From the NCBI GenBank assembly GCA_964016885.1, contig OZ024764.1:19840001-19904000 (forward strand): a stretch of DNA of 64,000 nt, given 5' to 3'. Below are positions 1,938 through 61,436 of the stretch, one piece after another. Every line of letters begins with the position of its first letter. Position 1 is the stretch's first letter. This DNA is from Eledone cirrhosa. Its lineage: Eukaryota. The notes below the pieces were generated by a model, which did not search any database, was not told where the DNA came from, and saw only the letters and a program-made list of their open reading frames with translations. A program made the position numbers and the translations under genes.

Positions 1938-2048
1938 GCATGCGCAGTGGTGCAGTTGTCGACTTCCTGTCCACGTGTTAGTCTTCCTACAACATCATTT
2001 AGACAACATTTCTGTAAATACTAAACACCTGAAACTATAATGTAAGTA
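1938..2048 (+). promoter_or_regulatory. Putative promoter and non-coding first exon of the ZNF gene, ending in a splice donor
   Basis: Clustered GCATGCGCA (NRF1-like), ACTTCCTG (ETS-like) and CACGTG (E-box) in a GC-richer patch, then T|GTAAGT at 2041/2042. The link to the ZNF exon is inference. Confidence 0.4.
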
Positions 2049-2341
2049 AAAACAAATAACGAAACGAAATTAAATTTCGTTTCATTTGTAACTCACTTTT
2101 GTATGACTGACGCTTAAACAATTAAGTTAAAGATGTACATCCATATATGTATACTGAAATACTAGTATGTATATGAATACACACACGTATACATATGTAG
2201 ATGTACCAAGTTTTTTCACTGGTCACTTTACTGTGAGTGGCCAGCTATTCTGTATGTAAACACACAGACAAACCGGTTTTTAGAGTCATACTGGTTTTTG
2301 AGGAAACACCTTTCCTCTATTCTCCAGAAAGCCAGACAAGG

Positions 2342-2386
2342 AATATTGAACTAGTTTCGTTGTTGTTACAACTCATCAGCAATATT
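2342..2386 (-). ncRNA. Minimal type I hammerhead ribozyme
   Basis: Minus strand: AATATTG-CTGATGA-GTTGT(AACA)ACAAC-GAAA-CTAGTT-CAATATT. 7-bp stem I, 5-bp stem II, palindromic ACTAGT stem III, GUU cleavage triplet. Confidence 0.88.
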
Positions 2387-2808
2387 TACCTATCTTCCGG
2401 CCTCTCTAGAGAATCGTAAAAGCACATATCGTTATATGCTTTTTCTATGAAAACTAGTAGTGGGCAGACCAATTTGCATAGAGTGTGAGTAAGTACCGGT
2501 TCAACGGAGACGATAAAAACAAATAACGAAACGAAATTAAATTTCGTTTCATTTGTAACTCACTTTTGTATGACTGACGCTTAAACAATTAAGTTAAAGA
2601 TGTACATCCATATATGTATACTGAAATACTAGTATGTATATGAATACACACACGTATACATATGTAGATGTACCAAGTTTTTTCACTGGTCACTTTACTG
2701 TGAGTGGCCAGCTATTCTGTATGTAAACACACAGACAAACCGGTTTTTAGAGTCATACTGGTTTTTGAGGAAACACCTTTCCTCTATTCTCCAGAAAGCC
2801 AGACAAGG

Positions 2809-2853
2809 AATATTGAACTAGTTTCGTTGTTGTTACAACTCATCAGCAATATT
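2809..2853 (-). ncRNA. Minimal type I hammerhead ribozyme
   Basis: Identical 45-nt motif 467 bp from the first. Confidence 0.88.
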
Positions 2854-3099
2854 TACCTATCTTCCGGCCTCTCTAGAGAATCGTAAAAGCACATATCGTT
2901 ATATGCTTTTTCTATGAAAACTAGTAGTGGGCAGACCAATTTGCATAGAGTGTGAGTAAGTACCGGTTCATTATCGTCTCCGTTGAACCGGTACTTACTC
3001 ACACTCTATGCAAATTGGTCTGCCCACTACTAGTTTTCATAGAAAAAGCATATAATGATATGTGCTTTTACGATTCTCTAGAGAGGCCGGAAATAGGTA

Positions 3100-3144
3100 A
3101 ATATTGCTGATGAGTTGTAACAACAACGAAACTAGTTCAATATT
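3100..3144 (+). ncRNA. Minimal type I hammerhead ribozyme
   Basis: aatattgCTGATGAgttgtaacaacaacGAAActagttcaatatt; predicted cleavage between 3137 and 3138. Confidence 0.88.
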
Positions 3145-3569
3145 CCTTGTCTGGCTTTCTGGAGAATAGAGGAAAGGTGTTTCCTCAAAAACCAGTATGA
3201 CTCTAAAAACCGGTTTGTCTGTGTGTTTACATACAGAATAGCTGGCCACTCACAGTAAAGTGACCAGTGAAAAAACTTGGTACATCTACATATGTATACG
3301 TGTGTGTATTCATATACATACTAGTATTTCAGTATACATATATGGATGTACATCTTTAACTTAATTGTATAATGTAAGTATTATGTCTATTAATATTGTA
3401 GATTTAAGCTCACTTTTCACATCACAAATATATATTTTCTTCGCTCAACCTTAAGTCTCACGTCAGAAATGAAATTTATTTTCATTTTCGATTCATTAAA
3501 AACTATTGTTTATCTGAATACAAAAACTGGTTGGACGACTACGGGCTGGCACTACGTTAGTTGATGTTT

Positions 3570-4020
3570 TGGATGTAAATGACATCGTTAATGAGAATAT
3601 AACACTTGTTACTCTTATACCTGTCATACACGGTGACAATCTATGTTACAGTGGCTGGTAAGACGGCAGTGACAGTGTCAATTGACCTGTTTGTAATGAA
3701 ACCTGCACATTAAACCATTATTCTGAGACTCACAAGAAATGGAGATGGCGATGTAACCCCGACAATGTCTCCCAAGCAGTGCGACATAATTGTTTTTTTC
3801 AAGGAAGCCATGTGCCTTATTTTTATTTTATACATGTGGTGCTACAATTATACACAAGCTGAGATGATTCGAGAAACGGGAGTCTCCCAACCGACAATTA
3901 TTGACTGGTGCAATTTTATTCGAGAAATTTGCGAGCAATATTTGGAGGAAAATCGCCAACAACTTGGAGGCTTCGATGACAATGGTGAGTCCATCATTGT
4001 CTAGATCGACGAGAGCCAGC
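3570..4020 (+). pseudogene. Merlin (IS1016/IS1595-like) transposase relic
   Basis: Zn-ribbon-like PVCNETC...WRWRC, then MIRETGVSQPTIIDWCNFIREICEQYLEENRQQLGG...IIV*IDES, the Merlin VEIDES catalytic motif with GAG>TAG. Truncated after the first catalytic D. Confidence 0.8.
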
Positions 4021-4236
4021 ATGGTACCAGAGCTGCTTTATTTCAATCTTATATTGCAGTCTTTGGTGACAGAGAGTTGGTGCCAACAAGTTTGGCGAGA
4101 TGATAAACTGCATTGGAGCAATTGATATGGTGTTTCATTACTGGAAATATAAAATGTTATGCTAATTATCTATATTTTACCTCACACCTTAGGTGTTGAG
4201 GCAAGCCAACACACTGGCAGCAATACCACGGGTGAT

Positions 4237-4338
4237 GGTGAGGCTAAGGTGCTTAAATAACCAGGTACCCACACGGGTATCACCTGACAACTCAGTAAGG
4301 TGAGGCTAAGGTGCTGAAATAACCAGGTACCCTCACGG
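4237..4338. repeat. 62-bp tandem repeat (~1.6 copies)
   Basis: ggtgaggctaaggtgct.aaataaccaggtaccc at 4237 and 4299. Confidence 0.8.
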
Positions 4339-4694
4339 AAACGACTAGATTTGTAGAAAAAGCAGGGTGAAAGTATACGAAGAGATGTAGTTTCACAGAT
4401 CTACTCACACCTCACGTTGGGTGGGAAATAATTATTTTTCTTAGAATTCTTTCTAGACCCCTTTTGAATATTTTCTCTGGACCCCTTAGATACTTGCAAT
4501 AGACGTTTTATTCCCCAGTTTTAGGGTTAGGGTTTCCGTTTTCAGGAAGAATAGTCGATTGCAAACATCTAAGAGGTCGAGAAAAATAATTAAGGAAAGA
4601 TAATTATTTCCCAGCCAACTGGAGAAGTGTGTAGCTCTTCTAAACTCCGATAATCCTGTCTCCCACTTCTTTATCTACAAATCTAGTCGTTTCC
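4337..4694. mobile_element. MITE-like element with long imperfect inverted repeats
   Basis: GGAAACGACTAGATTTGTAGA (4337-4357) is the exact reverse complement of 4674-4694. Internal arms also pair (gggaaataattat / ataattatttccc) around a central ttagggttaggg. No clear TSD. Confidence 0.75.
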
Positions 4695-4819
4695 TGCTAC
4701 TTTGAAGGCCCTATTTATTGATAACACCACCTGTAAATCTTTGTCAACTTTTCATACGTAAATTGCGAATCAGTTATTTTTAAACAAACTATCAAAGAAG
4801 TGATCTCACAGTAACTATG

Positions 4820-5092
4820 TTTGATTTAATCAACTTATTCCCCCCAAACATTGTCGACCTTGTGTCTAAATCAGAAACTATTATTAGATCTTAAATCAAC
4901 CCCGTAAGGATGAAGGGGAAAGCTAACCTCGGCTTTTTTCAACCCTTTATGTTTTGAGTTCAAATCCCACCAAAGTTAGCTTTGTCTTTCAATCTAACGG
5001 GGTGGATAAATTAAAGTTCCAGTAATCTACTGGGGTCTGAGATATTAAACGTTTGAGTAGATTCCATCTTTTGTGTGTTTCTATTTATAATC
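4820..5092 (+). mobile_element. Cluster of SINE fragments (Meta-domain-like, mollusc type); one inverted piece at ~4893-4933
   Basis: gagttcaaatccc B-box followed by ctttgtctttcaatctaacggggtggataaattaaagttccagt...tactggggtc. A 3'-end-like piece lies at 4820-4887. Confidence 0.65.
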
Positions 5093-5095
5093 TTA

Positions 5096-5177
5096 CTAGA
5101 ACACCTGTGACCTGTTGGGTCACGTTCCCTTTAAAAATAATTTTTAAATAATTAAAATATACACAGACATGTATATA
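5096..5177 (-). mobile_element. Helitron/Helentron-like terminus
   Basis: Minus strand: GC hairpin gtgacc-caaca-ggtcac, short spacer, then CTAG|T. Homologous to 16021-16119. Confidence 0.55.
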
Positions 5178-5510
5178 ATGTAAAATGAAATTAGTAGGCC
5201 CATATATATATAATTATAAAAACAAATAACGAAACGAAATTAAATTTCGTTTCGTTTGTAACTCACTTTTGTATGACTGACGCTTAAACCATTAAGTTAA
5301 AAATGTACATCCACATATGTATACTGAAATACTAGTATGCATATGAATACACACACGTATACATATGTAGATGTACCAAGTCTTTCACTGGTCACTTTAC
5401 TGTGAGTGGCCAGCTATTCTGTATGTAAACACACAGAAAAACCGGTTTTTAGAGTCATACTGGTTTTTGAGGAAACACCTTTCCTCTATTCTCCAGAAAG
5501 CCAGACAAGG

Positions 5511-5555
5511 AATATTGAACTAGTTTCGTTGTTGTTACAACTCATCAGCAATATT
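5511..5555 (-). ncRNA. Minimal type I hammerhead ribozyme
   Basis: Same 45-nt motif on the reverse strand. Confidence 0.88.
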
Positions 5556-5785
5556 TACCTATCTACCGGCCTTTCTGGAGAATCGTAAAAGCACATATCG
5601 TTATATGCTTTTTCTATGAAAATTAGTAGTGGGCAGACTAATTTGCATAGAGTGTGAGTACGTACCGGTTCAACGGTACGTACTCACACTCTATGCAAAT
5701 TAGTCTGCCCACTACTAATTTTCATAGAAAAAGCATATAACGATATGTGCTTTTACGATTCTCCAGAAAGGCCGGTAGATAGGTA

Positions 5786-5830
5786 AATATTGCTGATGAG
5801 TTGTAACAACAACGAAACTAGTTCAATATT
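5786..5830 (+). ncRNA. Minimal type I hammerhead ribozyme
   Basis: Same 45-nt motif. Confidence 0.88.
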
Positions 5831-6251
5831 CCTTGTCTGGCTTTCTGGAGAATAGAGGAAAGGCGTTTCCTCAAAAACCAGTATGACTCTAAAAACCGGT
5901 TTTTCTGTGTGTTTACATACAGAATAGCTGGCCACTCACAGTAAAGTGACCAGTGAAAGACTTGGTACATCTACATATGTATACGTGTGTGTATTCATAT
6001 GCATACTAGTATTTCAGTATACATATGTGGATGTACATTTTTAACTTAATTGTTTAAGCGTCAGTCATACAAAAGTGAGTTACAAACGAAACGAAATTTA
6101 ATTTCGTTTCGTTATTTGTTTTTATCGCCTCCGTTGAACCGGTACGTACTCACACTCTATGCAAATTAGTCTGCCCACTACTAATTTTCATAGAAAAAGC
6201 ATATAACGATATGTGCTTTTACGATTCTCCAGAAAGCCCGGTAGATAGGTA

Positions 6252-6296
6252 AATATTGCTGATGAGTTGTAACAACAACGAAACTAGTTCAATATT
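6252..6296 (+). ncRNA. Minimal type I hammerhead ribozyme
   Basis: Same 45-nt motif, 466 bp from the previous copy. Confidence 0.88.
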
Positions 6297-6542
6297 CCTT
6301 CTCTGGCTTTCTGGAGAATAGAGGAAAGGTGTTTCCTCAAAAACCAGTATGACTCTAAAAACCGGTTTTTCTGTGTGTTTACATACTGGCCACTCACAGT
6401 AAAGTGACCAGTGAAAGACTTGGTACATCTACATATGTATACGTGTGTGTATTCATATGCATACTAGTATTTCAGTATACATATGTGGATGTACATTTTT
6501 AACTTAATTATATAATTATATATATGCGTGTGTGTGTATATA

Positions 6543-7396
6543 CAGGGTGTGTACGATATTTGTTCGCAATTTTCAACTGCTAATTTTATGCAAATTTTTT
6601 TTACTTCCGTTATCACTCTTGTCTTCATAAAAACAGTGACTATATTTCCATTATTTATTTTCCGAATAATTGATTATGAATAATTTAGAACCTCCAAATT
6701 TGTGGAAGAGACAGAGTTCCTCTTGGAATCCGCGCCTGGAGGACAAATAAGGAACAGAAGATCAACTCCCAGAACAACAGGTGGCTCGCTGTCTCATCCA
6801 AAGACCTGCCCAGAGTCATGCAGACAAAGTTTCCAGCGACAACATTGGTCTTTGGTGTCATCAGCAGTCAAGGTGACGTCAAGCCACCTCACTTCTTCCC
6901 TGAGGACCTCAAGCTGAACACCGATGGCTACATCCACGTTCTGAGCAAGGTAGTAAAGCCCTGGATCGACCAGGTAGCTGCAGGTAGGCTGTACGTGTGG
7001 CAGCAAGACCCAAGCCTGGCTGTCAGAGAACTTCGTCGACCACACTTCACCTGACATCTGGCCTCCCAGCTCGCCTGACTGCAACCACCTCGACTTCTTT
7101 GTGTGGGGCGCAGTGGAACGAGACACCAACAGATGTAGCTGCAATACGAAAGGCGATCTGAAGGCCAGGATCACAAGTGCCTTTAGGGGCCTAAGTCGGG
7201 GGACAGTGACGAAGGCCTGTAGCTGGTTCCGAGGCCGTCATCAAAGCCAATGGCGGGTTTATGGAGTGAGATCGAAAGAACAAGTCATGAAGACAAACTG
7301 ACAGAAGTTTGATAAATATATCTTAAAAAATAAAACTACTGTCTTCTTATTTTTTCCTAGACAGTAATCTTGCGAACAAATATCGTCCGCACCCTG
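6543..7396 (+). mobile_element. Internally deleted Tc1/mariner transposon (DD37D/maT-like)
   Basis: TIRs CAGGGTGTGTACGATATTTGTTCGCAA / TTGCGAACAAATATCGTCCGCACCCTG with TA on both sides. Frameshifted transposase motifs VFGVISSQG, YVWQQD and WPPSSPDCNHLDFFVWG (third catalytic D). Confidence 0.9.
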
Positions 7397-7525
7397 TATA
7401 TATGTGTGTGTGTGTCTGTGGTTTTAATACCCTAGTCACAGACACACTCATACACACGCACACACACACACACAAGTAATAATTTCGTTCAACAACACCA
7501 CCAGCTCTCTCTCTCTATATATATA

Positions 7526-12953: not shown

Positions 12954-14405
12954 ATGTCGAAAAATATAGTAAAATCACCATTCCACTGTGATATCTGTGG
13001 TAAATCATTCTCTCGTAGTAATCACCTAACTACTCACAAACGTATTCATACAGGAGAGAAGCCATATCACTGTGATATCTGTGGTAAATCATTCAGTCGC
13101 AGTAATACCTTAACTAATCACAAACATATTCATACAGGAGAGAAACCATATCACTCTGATATCTGTGGTAAAACGTTCTCTAAAAATAATAACCTAACTA
13201 CTCACAAACGTATTCATACAGGAGAGAACCCATATCATTGTGATATCTGTGGTAAATCATTCACTTGTAGTCATCACCTAACTACTCACAAACGTATTCA
13301 TACAGGAGAGAAGCCTTATAAGTGTGATATCTGTGGTAAATCATTCAGTTACAATACTAGCGTCAGAGTTCACAAACAAATTCATACAGGAGAGAAGCCA
13401 TATCACTGTGATATCTGTAGTAAATCATTCTCTGGCAGAAGTAGCTTCCTTAAACACCAACGTATTCATACAAAAGAGAAACCATATCAGTGTGATATCT
13501 GTGACAAATCATTCAGTCACAGTAGTAGCGTCAGAGTTCACAAACGTATCCATACAGGAGAGAAGACATATCACTGTGACATCTGTGGTAAATCATTCAG
13601 TCAGAGTAATACCTTAACTACTTACAAACGTATTCATACAGGAGAGAAACCATATCACTGTGATATCTGTGGTAAAACGTTCTCTAAAAATAATAACCTA
13701 ACTACTCACAAACGTATTCATACAGGAGAGAAACCATATCACTGTGATATCTGTGGTAAAACGTTCTCTAAAAACAATAAGCTAACTACTCACAAACGTA
13801 TTCATACAGGAGAGAACCCATATCATTGTGATATCTGTGGTAAATCATTCACTTGTAGTCAGCACCTAACTACTCACAAACGTATTCATACAGGAGAGAA
13901 GCCATATCACTGTGATATCTGTGGTAAAACATTCTCTCTTAGTGATAACCTAACTATTCGCAAACGTATTCATACAGGAGAGAAGCCATATCACTGTGAC
14001 ATCTGTGGTAAATCATTCTCTAAATATAACAACCTAACTACTCACAAACGTATTCATACAGGAGAGAAGCCATATCAATGTGACATCTGTGATAAATCAT
14101 TCTCTCATAGTAATCGCCTAACTACTCACAAACGTATTCATACAGGAGAGAAGAAATATCACTGTGACATCTGTGGTAATTCATTCTCTCATAGTCATAA
14201 CCTAACTACTCACAAACGTACTCATACGGGAGAGAAACCATATCACTGTGACATCTGTGGTAAATCATTCGCTGACAGAAGTTGCTTAGCTACCCACAGA
14301 CGTACTCATACAGGAGAGAAGCCATATCACTGTGACATCTGTGGTAAATCATTCTCTCAAAGTGGTACCTTAACCAAGCATGTGCGTATTCATACAGAAG
14401 TTTAG
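12954..14405 (+). CDS. C2H2 zinc-finger array protein (17 tandem fingers, no effector domain), 483 aa
   Basis: Intact ORF of 28-aa YHCDICGKSF...HKRIHTGEKP repeats. AATAAA at 14674-14679. Confidence 0.95.
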   Translation: MSKNIVKSPFHCDICGKSFSRSNHLTTHKRIHTGEKPYHCDICGKSFSRSNTLTNHKHIHTGEKPYHSDICGKTFSKNNNLTTHKRIHTGENPYHCDICGKSFTCSHHLTTHKRIHTGEKPYKCDICGKSFSYNTSVRVHKQIHTGEKPYHCDICSKSFSGRSSFLKHQRIHTKEKPYQCDICDKSFSHSSSVRVHKRIHTGEKTYHCDICGKSFSQSNTLTTYKRIHTGEKPYHCDICGKTFSKNNNLTTHKRIHTGEKPYHCDICGKTFSKNNKLTTHKRIHTGENPYHCDICGKSFTCSQHLTTHKRIHTGEKPYHCDICGKTFSLSDNLTIRKRIHTGEKPYHCDICGKSFSKYNNLTTHKRIHTGEKPYQCDICDKSFSHSNRLTTHKRIHTGEKKYHCDICGNSFSHSHNLTTHKRTHTGEKPYHCDICGKSFADRSCLATHRRTHTGEKPYHCDICGKSFSQSGTLTKHVRIHTEV

Positions 14406-17869: not shown

Positions 17870-18194
<325 letters not shown>

Positions 18195-18244
18195 GGCGTA
18201 GGATAGAAGAAAGGAAAGGCACAGAAACGAAGAAAGAAATCCCC

Positions 18245-18289
18245 AGTCACTGAAGAGGTCACAGAGTGTGTGACGAAAGAACAATGACT
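18245..18289 (+). ncRNA. Degenerate hammerhead-like motif
   Basis: AGTCA-CTGAAGA-g-GTCACA(gagtg)TGTGAC-GAAA-gaacaa-TGACT. Stems I and II and both core boxes are present, but stem III and the NUH site are broken. Confidence 0.4.
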
Positions 18290-18502
18290 ATATATATATA
18301 AACAACTATCTGGTTGTGGAACCAACCAACCAACCAGAAATTTATAAATTTGTAAATTTATAAATATTTAATAAATTAAATTGAAGTGAAAGCAACTGGT
18401 GCGTGTGTTTCTTATTGGCAACATGACCCTCCCAAAGTATAACAATATCGGTTTCAACACACGATTTCAGATAAAGAATCTTGCTAAACAAATTCAGAAA
18501 CG

Positions 18503-19040
<538 letters not shown>

Positions 19041-22198: not shown

Positions 22199-22235
22199 AA
22201 TATGGTTTTATAAATATAGTTTCCATTTATTTAAT

Positions 22236-24325
<2,090 letters not shown>

Positions 24326-24558: not shown

Positions 24559-25337
24559 TTAATCTGCAAAATTTGAAACCAGAAAGTAAATATTTCTAAA
24601 GATTTGTAAAAGCATTAATTTTTTACGTTTTTGTTAGATTTCGAAACATGCAAAAAATCAGAAAAACGTAAAAAGATTAATGCGGAAGTATATATTTCGA
24701 CTATGAACTCTTTTTCGAAAAAACTAAAAAAAATTGATTATATAAGGTTTTCGAAAAACCTAAAAAAATCAATATTTGAAATCAGATATAAAAGTATAAA
24801 AAAATCAGATATAAAAGTAAAAAAGTATTAACTTCTGATTTCGAAAACTGATTTTTTAGGTTTTTCGAAAAAAGTTTAATCTGCAAAATTTGAAACCAGG
24901 AAGTAGATATTTCGAAAGATTTGTAAAAGCATTAATTTGTTACGTTTTTTTTAGATTTCGAAACATGCAAAAAATCAGAAAGACGTAAAAAGATTAATGC
25001 GGAAGTATATATTTCGACTATGAACTCTTTTTAGAAAAAACTAAAAAAAATTGATTATATAAGGTTTTCGAAAAACCTAAAAAAATCAATATTTGAAATC
25101 AGATATAAAAGTATAAAAAAATCAGATATAAAAGTATAAAAAAATCAGATATAAAAGTATAAAAAAAATTAATATGCGTTTTTCAAATTGCGTTTTTCGA
25201 AATATTAACTTCTTATTTCGAAAACTGATTTTTTTAGGTTTTTCGAAAAAAGTTTAATCTGCAAAATTTGAAGCCAGGAAGTAGATATTTCGAAAGATTT
25301 GTAAAAGCATTAATTTGTTACGTTTTTTTTTAGATTT
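24559..25337. repeat. Satellite A (AT-rich, TTCGAA-rich, variable ~225-440 bp monomers)
   Basis: Anchor taatctgcaaaatttgaa(a/g)cca recurs at 24560, 24877 and 25255. Confidence 0.97.
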
Positions 25338-28300
25338 AAACCCCAACCCCAAGACTTAGACTTAGACATAAACCCCAAACCGAAGCTTTAAGACTTAAAC
25401 TTAAACCCTAACCCCAAGCCTTAGACTTAGACTTAAACCCCAACCACTAGCATTAGACTTAGACTTAAACTCCAAGCTATAGACATAGATTTAAACCTCA
25501 ACTTCAAGACTTAGACTTAGACTTAAACCCCAACCTCAAGCCTTAGACTTAAAACCTAACCCCAAGCCTTAGCCCAGCTTGTAAACTTAAACCCCAACCG
25601 AAAGTCTTAGATTTAGACTTAAACCCCAACCACAAGCATTAGACTTAGACTTACCCCAACCATAAGTCTTAGATTTAGACTTAAACCCCAAGCCATAGAC
25701 ATAGATTTAAACACCAACCTCAAACCTTAGACGTAGACTTAAACCCCAACCTCAAGCCTTAGACTTAGACTTGAACCTCAACCCCAAGCCTTAGACTTAG
25801 ACTTAAAACCTAACCACTAGTATTAGACTTAGACTTAAACTCCAAGCCATAGACATAGATTTAAACACCAACCTCAAGACTTAGCAATAGACTTAAACCC
25901 CAGCTCCAAGCCTTAGACTTGGTCTTAAACCCCAACCACATTAGACTTAGACTTAGACTTAAACCCAAAATCCAAGCCTTAGACTTAAACTTAAACCCCA
26001 ACCCGAAGCTTTAGACATCGACATAAACCCCAACCAATAGCATTAGACTTAGACTTAAACCCCAACATTAAGCCTTAGACTTCGAGTTAAACCCCAAGCC
26101 ATACACATAGATTCAAACCCCAACACCAAGCCTTAGACTTAGAGTTGAATCCCAACCCCAAGTCTTAGATTTGGACTTAAATCCCAACAACTAGACTTAG
26201 ACTTAGACTTAAACCCAATCCTTAGACTTAGACTTAAACCCCCAACACCAAGCCTTAGACATAAACCCTAACCCCAAGCCTTAGACTTAAACCCCAACCT
26301 TTTGACTTAGACTTAACCCCAACCTTAAGCCTTAGACTTAGACTTGAACCCCAAGCCTAAGACTTAGACTTAAAACCCAACCACTAGCATTAGACTTAGA
26401 CTTAAACTCCACGCCATAGACATAGATTTAAACCCCAAACTCAAGACTTAGACTTAGAGTTAAACCCCAGCTCCAAGCCTTAAACTTAGACTTAAACCCC
26501 AACCCCAAGTCTTAGACTTAGACTTAACCCCAACCTTAAGCCTTAGACTTAGACTTGAACCCCAACCCCAAGCCTAAGACTTAGACTTTAAACCCAACCA
26601 CTAGCATTAGACTTAGACTTAAACTCCACGCCATAGACATAGATTTAAACCCCAACCTCAAGACTTAGACTTAGAGTTAAACCCCAGCTCCAAGCCTTAA
26701 ACTTAGACTTAAACCCCAACCCCAAGACTTAGACTTAGACATAAAGCCCAAACCCAAGCATTTGACTTAGACTTAAATCCAACACCAACCCTTAGACATA
26801 CACTTAAACACCAACCAAAAGGCTTAGACTTAGACTTAAACCCCAACCCAAAGCCTTAGACTTAGACATAAACCCCAACCCAAAGCCTTAGACTTAGACT
26901 TACACCCCAACCCCTTACCTTAGACGTAAACTTAAACCCCAACTCCAAGACTTAGACTTAGATTTAAATCCCAACCTCAAGCCTTAGACTTAGACACTAA
27001 CCCCAAACCAAAGCCTTAGACTTAGAATTAAACCCCAACCCCAAGTCTTATACATAGACTTAAACCACAACCCCAAGCCTTAGAATTAAACCCTTATAAC
27101 AAGCTTTAGACTTACAACTTAACCCCAAACCCCAACACGTAAACTTAAAAACCAACACAAATCCTTAGACTTAGACTTAAACCCCAATCCCAAGCCTTAG
27201 ACATAGACTTAAACCCCAACCCCATGTTTAGACTTCTACATAAAACCCAACCACAAGCCTTAGACGTAGACTTAAACCCCAACCTTAAGTCTTAGACTTA
27301 GACTTAATCCCCAACATTAAGCTTTAGACTTAGACTTAAACCCTAAGCCTTAGACATGGATTTAGACCCCAACCACAAGCCTTAGACTTAGACTTACACC
27401 CCAAATCCAAGCCTTAGATTTAAAGACTAATACCAACTCTTAGACTTAGACTTAAACCACAAACCCAAGCCTTAGACGTAAAATTAAACCCCAACTCCAA
27501 GACTTAGACTTAAACCCCAACCTCAAGCCTTACACGTAGTCTTAAACCCCAAACCAAAGCCTTAGAGTTAGACTTAAACTCCAAGCCTTCGACATGACTT
27601 AAACCCCTACCCCAAGCTTTAGACTTAGACGTAAACCCCAACGCCAAGCCTTAGAATTAAATCCTAACCACAACACTTAGTCTTAAACCCGAACCCCAAC
27701 CTTATCCTTATAATTAGATTTATACCCCAAACCCAAGCCTTAGACTTAGACTTAAACCCTAACGCCAAGCATTAGATTTATACTCACATCCTAACCCCAA
27801 GCCTTAGCCTTAGACTTAAACCCTTACCCCATGCCTTAGTCTTAGACATAAACCCCAACCACACGCCTTATACTTAGACTCAAACCCCAACACCAAGCCT
27901 TAGACTTAGATTTAAACCCGAACCCCAAGCCTTAGACTTAGATTTACACCACAACCCCAAACCATAGAGTTAGACTTGAAGATCAAGCACAAGCGTTAGA
28001 CTTAGATTTATACACCAAGCCCAAGCCTTAGACTTCGACTTAAACCCCAACCACAAGCATAAGACTTAGACTTAAACCTTACACTTAAAAACCAACACCA
28101 AGCCTTAGTCGTAGACTTAAACCTCTACCGAAAGCCTTCGAATTAAACTGAAACCCCAAACCGAAGCTTTAGACTTAAACTTAAACCCTAACCCCAAGCC
28201 TTAGACTTAGACTTAAACCCCAACCACTAGCATTAGACTTAGACTTAAACTCCAAGCCATAGACATAGATTTAAACCTCAACTTCAAGACTTAGACTTAG

Positions 28301-31300
28301 ACTTAAACCCCAACCTCAAGCCTTAGACTTAAAACCTAACCCCAAGCCTTAGCCCAGCTTGTAAACTTAAACCCCAACCGAAAGTCTTAGATTTAGACTT
28401 AAACCCCAACCACAAGCATTAGACTTAGACTTACCCCAACCATAAGTCTTAGATTTAGACTTAAACCCCAAGCCATAGACATAGATTTAAACACCAACCT
28501 CAAACCTTAGACGTAGACTTAAACCCCAACCTCAAGCCTTAGACTTAGACTTGAACCTCAACCCCAAGCCTTAGACTTAGACTTAAAACCTAACCACTAG
28601 TATTAGACTTAGACTTAAACTCCAAGCCATAGACATAGATTTAAACACCAACCTCAAGACTTAGCAATAGACTTAAACCCCAGCTCCAAGCCTTAGACTT
28701 GGTCTTAAACCCCAACCACATTAGACTTAGACTTAGACTTAAACCCAAAATCCAAGCCTTAGACTTAAACTTAAACCCCAACCCGAAGCTTTAGACATCG
28801 ACATAAACCCCAACCAATAGCATTAGACTTAGACTTAAACCCCAACATTAAGCCTTAGACTTCGAGTTAAACCCCAAGCCATACACATAGATTCAAACCC
28901 CAACACCAAGCCTTAGACTTAGAGTTGAATCCCAACCCCAAGTCTTAGATTTGGACTTAAATCCCAACAACTAGACTTAGACTTAGACTTAAACCCAATC
29001 CTTAGACTTAGACTTAAACCCCCAACACCAAGCCTTAGACATAAACCCTAACCCCAAGCCTTAGACTTAAACCCCAACCTTTTGACTTAGACTTAACCCC
29101 AACCTTAAGCCTTAGACTTAGACTTGAACCCCAAGCCTAAGACTTAGACTTAAAACCCAACCACTAGCATTAGACTTAGACTTAAACTCCACGCCATAGA
29201 CATAGATTTAAACCCCAACCTCAAGACTTAGACTTAGAGTTAAACCCCAGCTCCAAGCCTTAAACTTAGACTTAAACCCCAACCCCAAGTCTTAGACTTA
29301 GACTTAACCCCAACCTTAAGCCTTAGACTTAGACTTGAACCCCAACCCCAAGCCTAAGACTTAGACTTAAAACCCAACCACTAGCATTAGACTTAGACTT
29401 AAACTCCACGCCATAGACATAGATTTAAACCCCAACCTCAAGACTTAGACTTAGAGTTAAACCCCAGCTGCAAGCCTCAGAATTAAACTATAACCACAAG
29501 CCTTAGACAGAAACCCCATCCCCAAGCCTTAGACTTTGACTTAAATACCAACTCCTAGCCTTTGACTTAACATTAAACCCCAACCCCCAGCCTTAAATTT
29601 AGTCTTAAACCTCGACCCCCAATCCTTAGACTTAGATTTAAATACCAGCCCCAGGCCTTAGACATAGACTTAAAACACAACCAAAGCCTTAGTCATAGAT
29701 ATAATCCCCAACACCAATCCTTAGACTTAGACTTACTCGCCAATATTAAGCTGTAGACTTAGACTTTAACCCCAAGCCTTAGTGATAGATTTAAACCCCA
29801 ACCACAAGCCTTTGACTTAGACTTACACCCCAATCCCAAGCCTTAGAGTTAGACTTGAAGATCAAGCGCAAATGTTGGACTTAGATTTGAAACCCAACCA
29901 CAAGCATAAGACTTAGACTTAAACCCCAACCCCAAGCCTTAGACTTAGAGACCAACCCCAAGCCTTAGTCGCAGACTTAAACCTCTACCAAAAGCCTTAG
30001 AATTAAACTTAAACCCCATACCGAAGCTATAGACTTAAACTTAAACCCTAACCCCAAGCCTTAGACTTAAACTTAAATCCCAATCCCAAGCCTTAGACTT
30101 AAAACTTACCCCAAACATAAGCCTTAGATTTAGACTTAAACCCCAAGCCATAGACATAGATTTAAGCCCCAACCTCAAGCCTTAGACGTAGACTTAAACG
30201 CCAACCTCAAGCCTTAGACTTAGATTTTAACGTCAACCCCAAGGCTTAGACTTAGACTTGAGACCCAACTACTAGCCTTAGACTTTACATTAAACACCAA
30301 CCCCAAGCCTTAGACTTAGATTTAAACCTCAACCCCAGGCCTTAGACTTAGACTTAAATCACAACCCAAAGCCTTAGACATAGATTTAATCCCCAACACC
30401 AAGCCTTAGAGATAGACTTAAACCCAAACCCCAAGCCTTAGCCTTAGACTTAAATCACAAGCCCAAGCCTTAGACTTAAAACCCAACCACTAGCATTAGA
30501 CTTAGATTTAAACCCTAACACCAAGTCTTGCACTTAGACCTTAACCCGAAGCCTTAGGCTTAAACCCCAACCCCAAGCTTTAGACTTAGGCTTAAACCCC
30601 AACTCCAAGCTTTTGAATTAAACCATAACCACAAGGCTTAGACATAAACCCCAACCCTAAGCCTTAGTGTTAGACTTAAACACCAACTCCTAGCCTTAGA
30701 CTTAAACTTAAACCCCAACCCCAAACCTTTGACTTAAACCACAACCCAAAGTCTTAGACTTAGACATAAACAACAAGCCATAGACATATATTTAAACCCC
30801 AACCACATGACTTAGACTTAGACTTCAACCGCAGCTCCAAGCTTAGATTTAAACTCAAACCCCAAGACTTAGACTTAGACTTAAACCCCAACCCCAAGTC
30901 TTAGACTTAGACTTAAACCTCAACCCAAAGCATTAGACTTAGACTTAAACCTCAAACCCAAGACTTAGACTTAGACTGAAAGTCCAACTAAAAGCCTTAG
31001 ACTTAAACCCCAACTCCAAGGCTTAGACTTAGAATTAAACGTCAACCCTCAGCCTTAGACTCAGAATTACACCCCAACCCCAAGCCTTAGACTTAGACTT
31101 AAAGCCCAACTCCAGGATTTAGATTTAAACCCAACCCTTAAACTTAGACTTAAACCCCAACTCTAAAACTTAGGCTTAGACTTAAACCCCAACCTCAAGC
31201 CTTAGACGTAGACATTAACCCCAAACCAAAGCCTTAGAATTAGAATTAAACCCTAACCCAAAGCTTTATACATAGACTTAAACCACAACAGCAAGCCTTA

Positions 31301-31983
31301 CAATTAAACCCTAACAACATGTCTTAATCGTAAATAAACTTAAACCCAAACCAAGCCTTAGACATAGACTTAAACCCCAACCCCAAGCTTTAGCCTCAGA
31401 GTTGAACCCCAACCCCAAGTTAGACTTAAACCCCAACCACTAGCATTAGACTTACACTTAAACACCAACTCATTAGCCTTAGATTTACACTTAAACCCCA
31501 AACCCAAGAATTAAACCATAAACACAAGCCTTAGACTTAAACCCAAAAGCCAAGTCTTCGACTTAGGCTTAAACCCCAACCCAAAGCCTTAGACTTAGAC
31601 TTAAACCCCAACCTCAAGCCTCAGACTTAGACTTATAGCGCAACGCTTAGACTTAGACTTAACCCCAACCCCTAGCCTTAGACGTAAACTTAAACACCAA
31701 CCCCTAAACTTAGACTTAAACCCTAACCACAAGCCTTAGACTTAGACGTTAACCCCAACCCAAAGCTTACATTTAAACCCCAAACCCAAGCCTCAGACTT
31801 AGATTTAAACCCCAACCCCTAGCCTTAGACGTAACCTTAAACTTAGACTTACACATAAACCCCAAACTCAAGCCTTAGACTTAGACTTGAACCACAAATA
31901 CAAGCTTTAGACTTAGACTTAAACCCCAACCCCAACCCTTAGACATAGACTTAAACCCCAACATCAAGCCTTAGACTTAAACC
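25338..31983. repeat. Satellite B block 1 (32-bp consensus AAACCCCAACCCCAAGCCTTAGACTTAGACTT)
   Basis: Degenerate tandem array built from CCCCAA and TTAGAC hexamers; period 32 (e.g. 26841/26873). Confidence 0.97.
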
Positions 31984-34900
31984 TAAAAAAAATCAATATT
32001 TGAAATCAGTTATAAATATTTCTAAAAGTATAAACAAATTGATTTGCGTTTTTCGAAATATTAACTTCTGAATTCAAAAACTGATTTTTATAAAAAAATC
32101 AATATTTGAAATCAGATATAAATATTTCTAAAAGTATAAAAAAATCGATTATATAAGGTTTTCGAAAAAAAATTAATATGCGTTTTCCAAATTGCATTTT
32201 CCAAAATATTAACTTCTAATTTCGAAAACTGATTTTTTTAGGTTTTTCGAAAAAAATTTAATCTGCAAAATTTGAAACCAGAAAGTAAATATTTCGAAAG
32301 ATTTGTAAAAGCATTAAATTTTTACGTTTTTTTTAGATTTCGAAATATGCAAAAAATCAGAATAACGTAAAAAGATTAATGCAGAAGTATATATTTCGAA
32401 AAACCTAAAAAAATCAATATTTGAAATCAGATATAAATATTTTTAAAAGTATAAAAAAATTGATATAAAGTTTTCGAAAAAAAATTAATGTGTTTTTCAA
32501 ATTGCGTTTTTCAAATTGCGTTTTTCGAAGTATTAACTTCTGATTTCGAAAACTGATTTTTTTAGGTTTTTCGAAAAAAGTTTAATCTGCAAAATTTGAA
32601 ACCAGGAAGTAGATATTTCGAAAGATTTGTAAAAGCACTAATTTGTTACGTTTTTTTTAGATTTACATGCAAAAAAACCAAAAAACGTAAAAAGATTAAT
32701 GTTTCGAAAAACCTAAAAAAAATTACTTATATAAGGTTTTCGAAAAACCTAAAAAAAATCAATATTTCGAAATATTAACTTCTGATTTCGAAAACTAATT
32801 TTTTAGGTTTTTCGAAAAAAATTTAATCTGCAAAATTTGAAACCAGAAAGTAAATATTTCTAAAGATTTGTAAAAGCATTAATTTTTAAAGTTTTTTTTT
32901 AGATTTCGAAACATGCAAAAAATCAGAAAAACGTAAAAAGATTAATGCCGAAGTATATATTTCGACTATGACTCACAGTCATTCTTTTTTCGAAAAACCT
33001 AAAAAAAATTGATTATTTATATAATCAATTTTTTCGAAAAACCTAAAAAATCAATATTTGAAATAAGATATAAATATTTCTAAAAGTATAAAAAAATTGA
33101 TTATTTGTAAAAGCATTAATTTTTTACGTTTTTTTTAAATTTCGAAACATGCAAAAGATCAGAAAAACGTAAAAAGATTAATGCGGAAGTATATATTTCG
33201 ACTATGAACTCTTTTTCAAAAAAACTAAAAAAAATTGATTATATAAGGTTTTCGAAAAACCTAAAAAAATCAATATTTGAAATCAGATATAAATATTTCT
33301 AAAAGTATAAAAAAATCGATTATTTAAGGTTTTCGAAAAAAAATTAATATGCGTTTTTCAAATTGCATTTTTCGAAATATTAACTTCTGATTTCGAAAAC
33401 TGATTTTTTTAGGTTTTTCGAAAAAAGTTTAATCTGCAAAATTTGAAACCAGGAAGTAGATATTTCGAAAGATTTGTAAAAGTATTAATTTGTTACGTTT
33501 TTTTTAGATTTACATGCAAAAAAACCGAAAAACGTAAAAAGATTAATGCAGAAGTATATATGAACTCTTTTTCGAAAAACCTAAAAAAAATCAATATTTC
33601 GAAATATTAACTTCTGATTTCGAAACTGATTTTTTTGGTTTTTCGAAAAAAATTTAATCTGCAAAATTTGAAACCAGAAAGTAAATATTTCTAAAGATTT
33701 GTAAAAGCATTAATTTTTTACGTTTTTGTTAGATTTCGAAACATGCAAAAAATCAGAAAAACGTAAAAAGATTAATGCGGAAGTATATATTTCGACTATG
33801 AACTCTTTTTAGAAAAAACTAAAAAAAATTGATTATATAAGGTTTTCGAAAAACCTAAAAAAATCAATATTTGAAATCAGATATAAAAGTATAAAAAAAT
33901 TGATTATATAAGGTTTTCGAAAAACCTAAAAAAATCAATATTTGAAATCGGATATAAATATTTCTAAAAGTATAAAAAAATCGATTATATAAGGTTTTCG
34001 AAAAAAAATTAATATGCGTTTTCCAAATTGCTTTTTTCTAAATATTAACTTCTGATTTCGAAAACTGATTTTTTTAGGTTTTTCGAAAAAAATTTAATCT
34101 ACAAAATTTGAAACCAGAAAGTAAATATTTCGAAAGATTTGTAAAAGCATTAAATTTTTACGTTTTTTTTAGATTTCGAAATATGCAAAAAATCAGAAAA
34201 ACGTAAAAAGATTAATGCAGAAGTATATATGAACTCTTTTTCGAAAAACCTAAAAAAAATTAATTATATAAGGTTTTCGAAAAACCTAAAAAAAAATCAA
34301 TATTTCGAAATATTAACTTCTGATTTCGAAAACTGATTTTTTAGGTTTTTCGAAAAAAGTTTAATCTGCAAAATTTGAAACCAGGAAGTAGATATTTCGA
34401 AAGATTTGTAAAAGCATTAATTTGTTAGGTTTTTTTTAGATTTACATGCAAAAAAACCGAAAAACGTAAAAAGATTAATGCAGAAGTATATATGAACTCT
34501 TTTTCGAAAAACCTAAAAAAAATTAATTATATAAGGTTTTCGAAAAACCTAAAAAAAATCAATATTTCGAAATATTAACTTCTGATTTCGAAAACTGATT
34601 TTTTAGGTTTTTCGAAAAAAATTTAATCTGCAAAATTTGAAACCAGAAAGTAAATATTTCTAAAGATTTGTAAAAGCATTAATTTTTTACGGTCTTTTTA
34701 GATTTCGAAACATGCAAAAAATCAGAAAAACGTAAAAAGATTAATGCGGAAGTATATATTTCGACTATGAACTCTTTTTCGAAAAAACTAAAAAAATTTG
34801 ATTATATAAGGTTTTCGAAAGACCTAAAAAAATCAATATTTGAAATCGGATATAAATATTTCTAAAAGTATAAAAAAATCGATTATATAAGGTTTTCGAA

Positions 34901-52900: not shown

Positions 52901-54804
52901 AAATTAATATGCGTTTTTCAAATTGCGTTTTTCGAAATATTAACTTCTGATTTCGAAAACTGATTTTTTTAGGTTTTTGGAAAGAAATTTAATCTGCAAA
53001 ATTTGAAACCAGAAAGTAAATATTTCTAAAGATTTGTAAAAGCATTAATTTTTTAAGTTTTTTTTAGATTTCGAAACATGCAAAAAATCAGAAAAACGTA
53101 AAAAGATTAATGCAGAAGTATATATGAACTCTTTTTCGAAAAACCTAAAAAAAATTAATTATATAAGGTTTTCGAAAAACCTAAAAAAAAATCAATATTT
53201 CGAAATATTAACTTCTGATTTCGAAAACTGATTTTTTAGGTTTTTCGAAAAAAGTTTAATCTGCAAAATTTGAAACCAGGAAGTAGATATTTCGAAAGAT
53301 TTGTAAAAGCATTAATTTGTTAGGTTTTTTTAGATTTACATGCAAAAAAACCGAAAAACGTAAAAAGATTAATGCAGAAGTATATATGAACTCTTTTTCG
53401 AAAAACCTAAAAAAAATTACTTATATAAGGTTTTCGAAAAACCTAAAAAAAAATCAATATTTCGAAATATTAACTTCTGATTTCGAAAACTGATTTTTTA
53501 GGTTTTTCGAAAAAAATTTAATCTGCAAAATTTGAAACCAGAAAGTAAATATTTCTAAAGATTTGTAAAAGCATTAATTTTTTACGTTTTTTTTAGATTT
53601 CGAAACATGCAAAAAATCAGAAAAACGTAAAAAGATTAATGCGGAAGTATATATTTCGACTATGAACTCTTTTTCGAAAAAACTAAAAAAAATTGATTAT
53701 ATAAGGTTTTCGAAAGACCTAAAAAAATCAATATTTGAAATCAGATATAAAAGTATAAAAAAATCAGATATAAAAGTATAAAAAAATTGAAAACCTTATG
53801 GTTTTCGAAAAACCTAAAAAAATCAATATTTGAAATCAGATATAAATATTTCTAAAAGTATAAAAAAATCGATAAGGTTTTCGAAAAAAAATTAATATGC
53901 GTTTTCCAAATTGCATTTTCCGAAATATTAACTTCTGATTTCGAAAACTGATTTTTTTAGGTTTTTCGAAAAAAATTTAATCTGCAAAATTTGAAACCAG
54001 AAAGTAAATATTTCGAAAGATTTGTAAAAGCATTAAATTTTTACGTTTTTTTTAGATTTCGAAATATGCAAAAAATCAGAATAACGTAAAAAGATTAATG
54101 CAGAAGTATATATTTCGAAAAACCTAAAAAAAATTGATTATATAATTAAGGTTCCGAAAAACCTAAAAAAATCCATATTTGAAATCAGATATAAATATTT
54201 TTAAAAGTATAAAAAAATTGATTATATAAAGTTTTCGAAAAAAAATTAATGTGTTTTTCAAATTGCGTTTTTCAAATTGCGTTTTTCGAAGTATTAACTT
54301 CTGATTTCGAAAACTGATTTTTTTAGGTTTTTCGAAAAAAGTTTAATCTGCAAAATTTGAAACCAGGAAGTAGATATTTCGAAAGATTTGTAAAAGCATT
54401 AATTTGTTACGTTTTTTTTAGATTTCGAAACATGCAAAAAATCAGAAAAACGTAAAAAGATTAATGCGGAAGTATATATTTCGACTATGAACTCTTTTTA
54501 GAAAAAACTAAAAAAAATTGATTATATAAGGTTTTCGAAAAACCTAAAAAAATCAATATTTGAAATCAGATATAAAAGTATAAAAAAATCAGATATAAAA
54601 GTATAAAAAAATCAGATATAAAAGTATAAAAAAAATTAATATGCGTTTTTCAAATTGCGTTTTTCGAAATATTAACTTCTTATTTCGAAAACTGATTTTT
54701 TTAGGTTTTTCGAAAAAAGTTTAATCTGCAAAATTTGAAGCCAGGAAGTAGATATTTCGAAAGATTTGTAAAAGCATTAATTTGTTACGTTTTTTTTTAG
54801 ATTT
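31984..54804. repeat. Satellite A main array (~22.8 kb) with ~4.8-kb higher-order repeats
   Basis: Continuous monomers; identical variant strings at offsets 4765-4766 (35370/40136, 36665/41430) and 4854 (45389/50243). Confidence 0.97.
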
Positions 54805-60800: not shown

Positions 60801-61436
60801 AAACCAAGCCTTAGACATAGACTTAAACCCCAACCCCAAGCTTTAGCCTCAGAGTTGAACCCCAACCCCAAGTTAGACTTAAACCCCAACCACTAGCATT
60901 AGACTTACACTTAAACACCAACTCATTAGCCTTAGATTTACACTTAAACCCCAAACCCAAGAATTAAACCATAAACACAAGCCTTAGACTTAAACCCAAA
61001 AGCCAAGTCTTCGACTTAGGCTTAAACCCCAACCCAAAGCCTTAGACTTAGACTTAAACCCCAACCTCAAGCCTCAGACTTAGACTTATAGCGCAACGCT
61101 TAGACTTAGACTTAACCCCAACCCCTAGCCTTAGACGTAAACTTAAACACCAACCCCTAAACTTAGACTTAAACCCTAACCACAAGCCTTAGACTTAGAC
61201 GTTAACCCCAACCCAAAGCTTACATTTAAACCCCAAACCCAAGCCTCAGACTTAGATTTAAACCCCAACCCCTAGCCTTAGACGTAACCTTAAACTTAGA
61301 CTTACACATAAACCCCAAACTCAAGCCTTAGACTTAGACTTGAACCACAAATACAAGCTTTAGACTTAGACTTAAACCCCAACCCCAACCCTTAGACATA
61401 GACTTAAACCCCAACATCAAGCCTTAGACTTAAACC
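54805..61436. repeat. Satellite B block 2 (near-identical copy of block 1)
   Basis: Matches 25338-31983 at offset 29467, changing to 29453 after a 14-bp deletion near 59704. Confidence 0.97.

What the first reader, a model, noticed from the sequence alone, without database searches (positions are those of the whole stretch)
2047..6509. Family of non-coding, hammerhead-ribozyme mobile elements (retrozyme-like, 467-nt unit)
Seen: six copies of a 467-bp non-coding unit, each with an invariant 45-nt type I hammerhead (CUGAUGA and GAAA boxes, 7-bp stem I, 5-bp stem II, palindromic ACUAGU stem III, GUU site). They form two insertions, each with its own TSD. The unit is rich in hairpins (gaaacgaaatt-a-aatttcgtttc, ctggtcact...agtggccag, aaaagca.ata...tatgctttt). 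Established: minimal HHRs with a palindromic stem III occur in Penelope-like elements and metazoan non-LTR retrozymes and are thought to cleave as dimers; retrozymes yield circular RNAs. Inference: this is a non-autonomous self-cleaving RNA element producing ~467-nt monomers or circles, possibly undescribed in this lineage.
Basis: partly seen in the sequence, partly recalled or inferred. Interest (0 to 1): 0.92.

Follow-up and report, generated by a model that had tools for sequence, protein, structure and literature searches.

The report
Penelope-inserted hammerhead retrozyme, edited RNA template
These are two young insertions of a non-coding 467-base repeat that carries a predicted self-cutting RNA motif and occupies roughly two thousand or more sites in this animal genome; their mirror-image arms and repeated A-to-G changes suggest that a Penelope-type jumping-gene enzyme copied one edited RNA, likely a circle, round and round into the chromosome.

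Summary
Observation confirmed: six identical 45-nt type I hammerheads in two insertions (TSDs 13 and 12 nt; empty site seen in run X2). G000 holds 9,261 exact hammerhead cores and 1,980 exact end/(TA)n junctions. This is the inverted-copy-plus-one-sided-tail footprint of Penelope-like elements. Both arms share one monomer haplotype. Rare changes fixed throughout an insertion are A>G on the ribozyme strand (28 vs 2 T>C; single-unit changes 28 vs 26), as RNA editing would leave. Window insertion 1 holds 3 of the genome's 4 copies of one such change. Best reading: a non-LTR retrozyme whose single RNA template, likely circular, is reverse-transcribed repeatedly by a Penelope enzyme. Cleavage, circles and the partner element were not shown; no RNA run was available. 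Some long arrays show 2-7-unit periods, and snap-back fits many junctions. New member of a known class, with genomic evidence for a step only proposed in the papers read. This scan noted the same family and signals before at other places in this genome.

The parts
2036..2048 (.). Left target-site duplication of insertion 1 (13 nt; last 2 nt also match the element end)
   Evidence: empty site in run X2
2047..2970 (-). Insertion 1, B arm: about 2 units, ribozyme sense on the minus strand; outer end at site B (monomer position 302-303 counted from the cleavage site), inner end at 313
2047..2114 (-). 'Tail' between end sites A (229/234) and B (303), with the GAAACGAAAT..ATTTCGTTTC hairpin; among the least variable parts of the unit (221-260 and 281-300)
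2342..2386 (-). Type I hammerhead; predicted cut between 2349 and 2348
2454..2454 (-). Monomer position 362 A>G (sense), also at 2921 and 3033; in a predicted stem; likely a reverse-transcribed A-to-I edit
2809..2853 (-). Type I hammerhead
2971..3367 (+). Insertion 1, A arm: inner end at monomer 300, outer end at site A
3100..3144 (+). Type I hammerhead; predicted cut between 3137 and 3138
3368..3380 (.). Right target-site duplication of insertion 1
5207..5218 (.). Left target-site duplication of insertion 2 (12 nt, TA-rich)
5216..5676 (-). Insertion 2, B arm (about 97% identical to insertion 1; different haplotype)
5511..5555 (-). Type I hammerhead
5674..6508 (+). Insertion 2, A arm: about 1.8 units, outer end at site A
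5786..5830 (+). Type I hammerhead
6252..6296 (+). Type I hammerhead
6509..6520 (.). Right target-site duplication of insertion 2

Best explanation
This is a protein-free 467-nt hammerhead retroelement (non-LTR retrozyme) inserted as two head-to-head arms with two fixed outer ends, and it likely spreads when a Penelope-type reverse transcriptase copies one RNA molecule, likely a circle, several times over from both ends of a cut in TA-rich DNA. Steps: (1) tandem arrays are transcribed on the ribozyme strand (inferred from the strand-specific A>G changes). (2) The hammerhead cuts the multimer, probably as a dimer through palindromic stem III, and monomers are ligated to circles (inferred from the class; untested). 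(3) ADAR edits the self-paired RNA (inferred). (4) A PLE RT/GIY-YIG protein nicks both target strands 12-13 nt apart in or near (TA)n (TSD and target shown; enzyme inferred). (5) One DNA end primes at site A and the other at site B of the same RNA (A/B pairing and shared haplotype shown; twin priming inferred). (6) Each cDNA runs for a variable number of rounds and the two are joined head to head (architecture shown).
For: Two fixed ends, one of each kind: 60 A/B, 1 A/A, 0 B/B, 10 unclassifiable of 71 two-armed elements (L093/L094 are duplicates). In the sample not chosen by end type: 23 A/B, 1 A/A, 2 unclassified of 26. From the genome-wide coordinate lists on C1: 32 A/B, 3 A/A loci, and 1 B/B that is two separate elements. 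Exact end/(TA)n junctions: 1,980 B and 1,367 A, controls 0. Autonomous RT+GIY-YIG elements of this genome show the same layout (L150, L151, L164). Papers describe it as the PLE hallmark (PMC8557442 and PMC3846280, passages) and show two internal RT start sites bounding the tail, with both strands cut and extended (PMC11167929, parts 1-2). One template per insertion: the two arms differ by a median 0.4% against 3.2% to arms of other insertions (55 elements). 19 of 30 arrays with 3 or more full units have no shared polymorphic site. RNA origin: rare changes fixed in all covering segments of an insertion are A>G 28 vs T>C 2 (p 3e-7), while single-unit changes are 28 vs 26 (Fisher p 8e-5). The 362A>G word occurs 4 times in G000, 3 of them the covering units of window insertion 1, on both arms. 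The clustered A>G word of L101 occurs 4 times, all in that one insertion, on both arms. No trace of free 5' ends: 4 of 153 inner ends lie within 5 nt of the cleavage site (3.3 expected), and 332 of 334 passages through the site are seamless. Arms of about 30 units exist (14.6 kb). Hammerhead under selection: compensatory stem II change. A sister family (about 483 nt, 63% identical) keeps the core and ACUAGU stem III with a re-paired stem I, and has A/B ends in 3 of 18 loci inspected.
Against: No RNA-level observation, and no cleavage assay. 8 of 9 Xenopus retrozyme dimers did not cleave in vitro (10.64898/2026.07.22.740005, part 3). In PAc, ribozyme cleavage was not needed for insertion and uncut RNA was the main substrate (PMC11167929). 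The youngest subfamily has GUU, whereas 14 of 48 distinct units have GUC. 11 of 30 arrays have shared polymorphic sites. Three of these are alignment effects or two separate elements, but L047, L108, L119, L069 and L038 show 2-, 6- and 7-unit patterns that a monomer circle cannot give. 'Private' is relative to about 90 sampled elements: the triple A>G word of L080 is not private but marks 69 units at about 7 loci. Edited positions are not enriched in predicted pairs (13 of 22 vs 90 of 150 A). About 10 of 59 junctions are near-mirror (17 counted, about 7 of them hairpin alignment artefacts; 3.9 expected). Both window junctions are among them, which fits snap-back. The driving PLE was not found.
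Confidence: 0.7

Rival explanations
1. PLE-mobilised retrozyme, but the template is linear: a cut monomer held together by stem I and re-used by precise template jumps, or uncut multimers from homogeneous donor arrays, with long arrays grown later by local DNA duplication.
For: Higher-order 6-7-unit periods in older long arrays. Uncut RNA is the main PAc substrate (PMC11167929). An edited haplotype can be inherited as a sub-lineage. A pseudo-circular cut monomer would give the same repeated edits.
Against: Seamless passage in 332 of 334 junctions and no pile-up of inner ends at the cut site. A>G words unique to one insertion yet in all its units on both arms need one unit copied repeatedly at insertion, which uncut multimers do not give.
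Confidence: 0.18
2. Same element and template, but the second arm is made by snap-back on the first cDNA (self-priming at a palindrome) and resolved at the other fixed site, not by a second primer on the RNA. This rival concerns step 5 only.
For: Excess of near-mirror junctions at palindromes, including both window insertions. Proposed for PLEs in PMC3846280 (passages). It explains shared haplotypes trivially. 46-50 of 59 elements are length-compatible with one order or the other.
Against: 9-13 of 59 fit neither order, 5 of them free of hairpin ambiguity (L054, L073, L093, L106, L111). Arm lengths are uncorrelated (A longer 27, B longer 33, rho 0.13). PAc extends both strands in vitro (PMC11167929).
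Confidence: 0.3
3. The unit is only the pLTR of an autonomous Penelope element not yet seen.
For: Identical insertion footprint to PLEs. About 10,600 GIY-YIG candidates exist and only 40 loci were inspected.
Against: In 236 full units and 60 end-anchored loci the unit continues only into itself, the other arm or target flank. The one PLE ORF next to a sister-family unit (L058) is a one-off: of 29 other copies of that ORF end, none continues into the unit.
Confidence: 0.04
4. A satellite spread by DNA-level recombination, with a hammerhead passenger.
For: Tandem arrays up to about 30 units, with higher-order periods in some.
Against: Dispersed insertions with TSDs, an empty site, fixed 3' ends at (TA)n and strand-specific A>G changes.
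Confidence: 0.02

Closest known systems
Metazoan non-LTR retrozymes (Cervera and de la Pena 2020, PMC7229834, parts 2-4 of 6 and word search read; Li, Clavereau and Pollet 2026, 10.64898/2026.07.22.740005, parts 1-3 of 5 read)
   Same: Tandem non-coding units, each with a type I hammerhead; low GC; TSD longer than 4 bp; strongly self-paired predicted circle; PLEs proposed as mobilisers; a mollusc example (mussel, 350-390 nt) is known.
   Different: 467 nt, above the 170-400 nt of the 2020 paper but inside the 51-972 nt of the 2026 preprint. The 2020 main text has no occurrence of 'inverted', 'microsatellite', 'octopus' or 'cephalopod'. The parts of both papers read describe no fixed A/B ends or editing marks. 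No pLTR homology to an autonomous PLE was found here, unlike 24 of 57 Xenopus families. RNA expression and cleavage were shown there, not here.
Endonuclease-bearing Penelope-like elements (PMC8557442, PMC3846280, PMC4209133 passages; PAc, PMC11167929 parts 1-2 of 4)
   Same: Inverted 5'-truncated copy, tail at one end only, AT/(TA)n target, minimal hammerhead with palindromic helix III thought to act as a dimer, two internal RT start sites.
   Different: No ORF. Arms are multimers of one self-contained unit. The tail is 69-74 nt against 30-40 in the papers (about 66 in the PLE family of L145/L150 here).
MRC1 and other non-autonomous Chlamys elements of Chlamydomonas (PMC8557442, passage)
   Same: Non-autonomous PLE passengers with multicopy head-to-tail insertions.
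   Different: Those resemble autonomous partners at their 3' ends, and Chlamys mostly lack canonical hammerheads.

Membership tests
Non-LTR retrozyme | Type I hammerhead in every repeat unit | tested here: met
   6 of 6 in the window; CUGAUGA intact in 234 of 236 full units; compensatory stem II change
Non-LTR retrozyme | Tandem multi-copy units, dispersed in the genome | tested here: met
Non-LTR retrozyme | Non-coding, GC under 50%, no LTR structure | tested here: met
   Longest stop-to-stop frames over the unit 57-70 aa; G+C 165 of 467; no terminal direct repeats other than the unit itself. PBS/PPT not searched separately.
Non-LTR retrozyme | TSD longer than 4 bp | tested here: met
   13 and 12 nt; empty site; elsewhere mostly hidden in (TA)n
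Non-LTR retrozyme | Highly self-paired monomer | tested here: met
   Predicted only: -149 kcal/mol, z -9
Non-LTR retrozyme | Self-cleavage | not testable with these tools
   Needs in vitro transcription
Non-LTR retrozyme | Expressed as linear and circular RNA | tested here: inconclusive
   No RNA run to test; indirect support from strand-specific A>G repeated in all units
Autonomous Penelope-like element | RT + GIY-YIG ORF | tested here: not met
   No ORF in or joined to the unit
Autonomous Penelope-like element | Inverted 5'-truncated copy and one-sided tail; AT-rich target (works-like feature) | tested here: met
Autonomous Penelope-like element | Sequence shared with the pLTR of an autonomous family | tested here: inconclusive
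   None significant against the 3' ends of 7 PLE loci or 20 long-ORF loci (output partly cut); about 10,600 GIY-YIG candidates not covered
Rfam Hammerhead_HH9 (RF02275) | Score at or above gathering 52 bits | tested here: not met
   32.7-38.6 bits; same clan, not this family

The most novel reading that the evidence does not exclude
Each insertion is a DNA record of one ADAR-edited circular RNA copied by two Penelope reverse transcriptases rolling on the same circle from two fixed start sites about 70 nt apart. This would be genomic proof of rolling-circle target-primed reverse transcription. It would also mean that RNA edits become heritable and found new sub-lineages of the element (69 units at about 7 loci share one triple A>G word).
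Probability: 0.45. Interest if true: 0.8.

Novelty: new member of a known kind. Interest (0 to 1): 0.62.

Why it matters
The papers read propose, but do not show, that retrozyme circles are reverse-transcribed by PLEs into tandem cDNA, and they leave the origin of the PLE tail and head-to-head arms open. This family gives thousands of young natural products with both marks. It names a defined 467-nt substrate and two predicted start sites for an in vitro test. It also indicates that RNA edits are written back into the germline and drive the element's evolution. The class itself is known.

Tried and rejected
Rfam at gathering threshold: no hit. The miRNA matches are hairpin artefacts. RNA runs: no RNA holder listed. 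X4-X6 (organisms B-D) hold only 3-11 contigs each, so they were not used for host range. L058, a PLE ORF end abutting a sister-family unit, looked like the parent element but is a one-off. An apparent antisense match between the tail and the tail of the L145 PLE family is not significant (p about 0.10 by alignment, 0.11 by duplex). A pile-up of 5' ends at the cleavage site, as a sign of cut templates, was not found. The excess of pair-keeping changes over the whole unit (27 of 30 on the alifold structure; 23 of 37 sense vs 18 of 35 antisense on a single-sequence structure) was dropped as evidence of structural selection, because A>G edits make G-U pairs by themselves. The 241-270 peak of inner ends is inflated by matches to the tail hairpin. 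Literature searches for this family or these signals: only PMC8557442; 0 papers; nothing relevant by listing. Subscription journals, Repbase/Dfam and bioRxiv supplements were not available; the species tables of the 2026 preprint and the supplements of PMC7229834 were not read and could list a cephalopod family. A look-up of earlier scan notes by sequence returned nothing.
Full report
Observation. The region holds two insertions, 2049-3367 and 5219-6508, of a 467-nt unit. There are six identical 45-nt type I hammerheads, three per strand. The TSDs are 13 and 12 nt, and a contig of run X2 joins 2035 to 3368 over the 13-nt duplication, the empty site. Rfam HH9 hits all six, below its gathering score. 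Positions below count from the predicted cleavage site on the ribozyme strand ('monomer position').

Family size. The window is G000:C25:19840001-19904000 in a 3.0-Gb assembly. Exact patterns give 9,261 hammerhead cores, 1,980 B-end/(TA)n junctions and 1,367 A-end/(TA)n junctions; all reversed-pattern controls were 0. These are lower bounds. I fetched 33 stretches around the best matches (two cover one long array; a 34th stretch was the window's neighbour) and the first 60 of the 100 listed B ends on C1. Units are about 85-100% identical to the window unit. No call named the host. A cephalopod is my inference from genome size, (TA)n load and the C2H2 array, and it is the label in earlier scan notes.

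Architecture. Most insertions are two arms head to head with 3' ends outward. One ends at site A (229 or 234) and the other at site B (303), while inner ends vary. Of 71 two-armed elements, 60 are A/B, 1 is A/A, 0 are B/B and 10 could not be classed (4 cut by the fetch limit, 6 rearranged or truncated). The B-anchored sample cannot show A/A. The unanchored sample gave 23 A/B and 1 A/A of 26, and pairing the C1 coordinate lists gave 32 A/B, 3 A/A loci and one false B/B. Several apparently one-armed copies carry a 15-25-nt A stub. Flanks are (TA)n in most loci. This is the PLE layout: an inverted truncated copy and a tail often at one end only (PMC8557442; PMC3846280; passages). In PAc the tail lies between two internal RT start sites, both target strands are cut and extended, and a dimer is predicted (PMC11167929). 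RT+GIY-YIG elements here show the same two ends.

One template per insertion. Both arms carry the same haplotype: median 0.4% between own arms against 3.2% to others, over 55 elements. 19 of 30 arrays with three or more full units have no shared polymorphic site. Of the other 11, L047, L108, L119, L069 and L038 show 2-, 6- or 7-unit patterns, which point to multimeric templates or later local duplication.

Editing signal. An earlier scan note (e1-8803865) mentioned editing scars, so I tested this. Rare substitutions fixed in all covering segments of an element are A>G 28, T>C 2, G>A 2, C>T 2 of 51; single-unit substitutions are A>G 28, T>C 26 of 205. They cluster (9 in L102, 5 in L101). A G neighbour on the 5' side is rare (2 of 22 sites vs 23 of 150 A), too few to test, and there is no enrichment in predicted pairs. 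Genome-wide, the 362A>G word of window insertion 1 occurs 4 times, 3 in this insertion on both arms. The L101 word occurs 4 times, all in L101. The L080 word occurs 69 times at about 7 loci, so it is a sub-lineage and not private. That a one-strand A>G excess marks ADAR editing is established knowledge, recalled. An edit present in every unit of both arms requires one RNA unit to be copied repeatedly.

Circle or cut monomer. Inner ends do not gather at the cleavage site (4 of 153 within 5 nt, 3.3 expected), and 332 of 334 passages are seamless. This favours a covalent circle, but a cut monomer held by stem I and re-used by precise jumps is not excluded. Twin priming or snap-back: arm lengths are uncorrelated and either arm can be longer, and 5 clear cases fit snap-back in neither order. 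But about 10 of 59 junctions are near-mirror, including both window insertions, so both routes may operate.

Ribozyme. CUGAUGA is invariant in 48 distinct units and GAAA differs in one. Stem II has a compensatory swap in 15, stem I varies mainly by wobble, and N17 is U in 34 and C in 14. A sister family (about 483 nt, 63% over 358 nt, E 1e-23) keeps the core and stem III with a re-paired stem I and a GUA site. Short palindromic helix III hammerheads are described as dimer-acting with low in vitro activity (PMC4209133, passages). Activity is untested here.

Partner. GIY-YIG gave 10,595 candidates. Twenty long-ORF loci hold several RT+GIY-YIG families, some with intact frames. None shares significant sequence with the unit, and the L058 junction is a one-off. 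The driver is unknown.

Comparison. The element meets the sequence criteria of non-LTR retrozymes (PMC7229834); the RNA criteria are untested. That paper hypothesises RT on circles by PLEs, and the 2026 preprint argues PLE origin from co-occurrence and pLTR phylogeny in vertebrates. Searches found no report of A/B two-armed retrozyme arrays or editing marks in them; Repbase, Dfam, subscription journals and supplements were not seen. Earlier notes of this scan report the same family and similar ones in this genome; they are not independent support.

Verdict. Real. A new member of a known class, with unusually direct genomic evidence for PLE mobilisation (strong), an RNA template re-used within one insertion (strong) and a covalent circle (moderate). 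Interest 0.62.

Noticed in passing
window 19228 (-) and 22141 (+): A head-to-head pair of another hammerhead-like motif between long (TA)n tracts (17876-19040, 22234-24324); the same motif family forms such pairs in L045, L049, L099 and L112.
   Followed up: no
L155:8218-9901; L195-L224: Sister retrozyme family, about 470-550-nt units with an internal (TA)n, GUA site, 63% identical to this unit, young arrays, A/B ends in some loci.
   Followed up: partly
window 3442-4130: Stretch skipped in a high-depth joint in all three runs laid, with a 96-aa frame (3714-4004) that looks by recall like a Merlin/ISXO2-type transposase piece; no Pfam hit. Insertion 1 itself lies in a multicopy host repeat.
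   Followed up: partly
window 6537-7402: 33-nt terminal inverted repeats around broken frames that resemble, by recall, a Tc1/mariner transposase; no Pfam hit.
   Followed up: partly
window 12984-14363: Array of about 16 C2H2 zinc fingers, 84-bp period.
   Followed up: no
window 25330-31987, 54797-61440 and 32000-54800: 32-bp satellite blocks flanking a complex AT-rich (21% GC) satellite.
   Followed up: no
L145, L151, L163, L164 (3' repeats): These PLE families lack a canonical hammerhead by my scan but carry a TTTGA..GAAACCGGT-like motif near the 3' end that may be a variant core with a palindromic stem III; read by eye only.
   Followed up: no
L145:4309-7122, L147:2275-5562: Long open RT+GIY-YIG frames (938 and 1096 codons stop to stop) of apparently young PLE families; candidates for the driver.
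   Followed up: partly
L108, L119, L069, L038: Higher-order periods of 6-7 units (about 3 kb) recur in long arrays; unexplained.
   Followed up: partly
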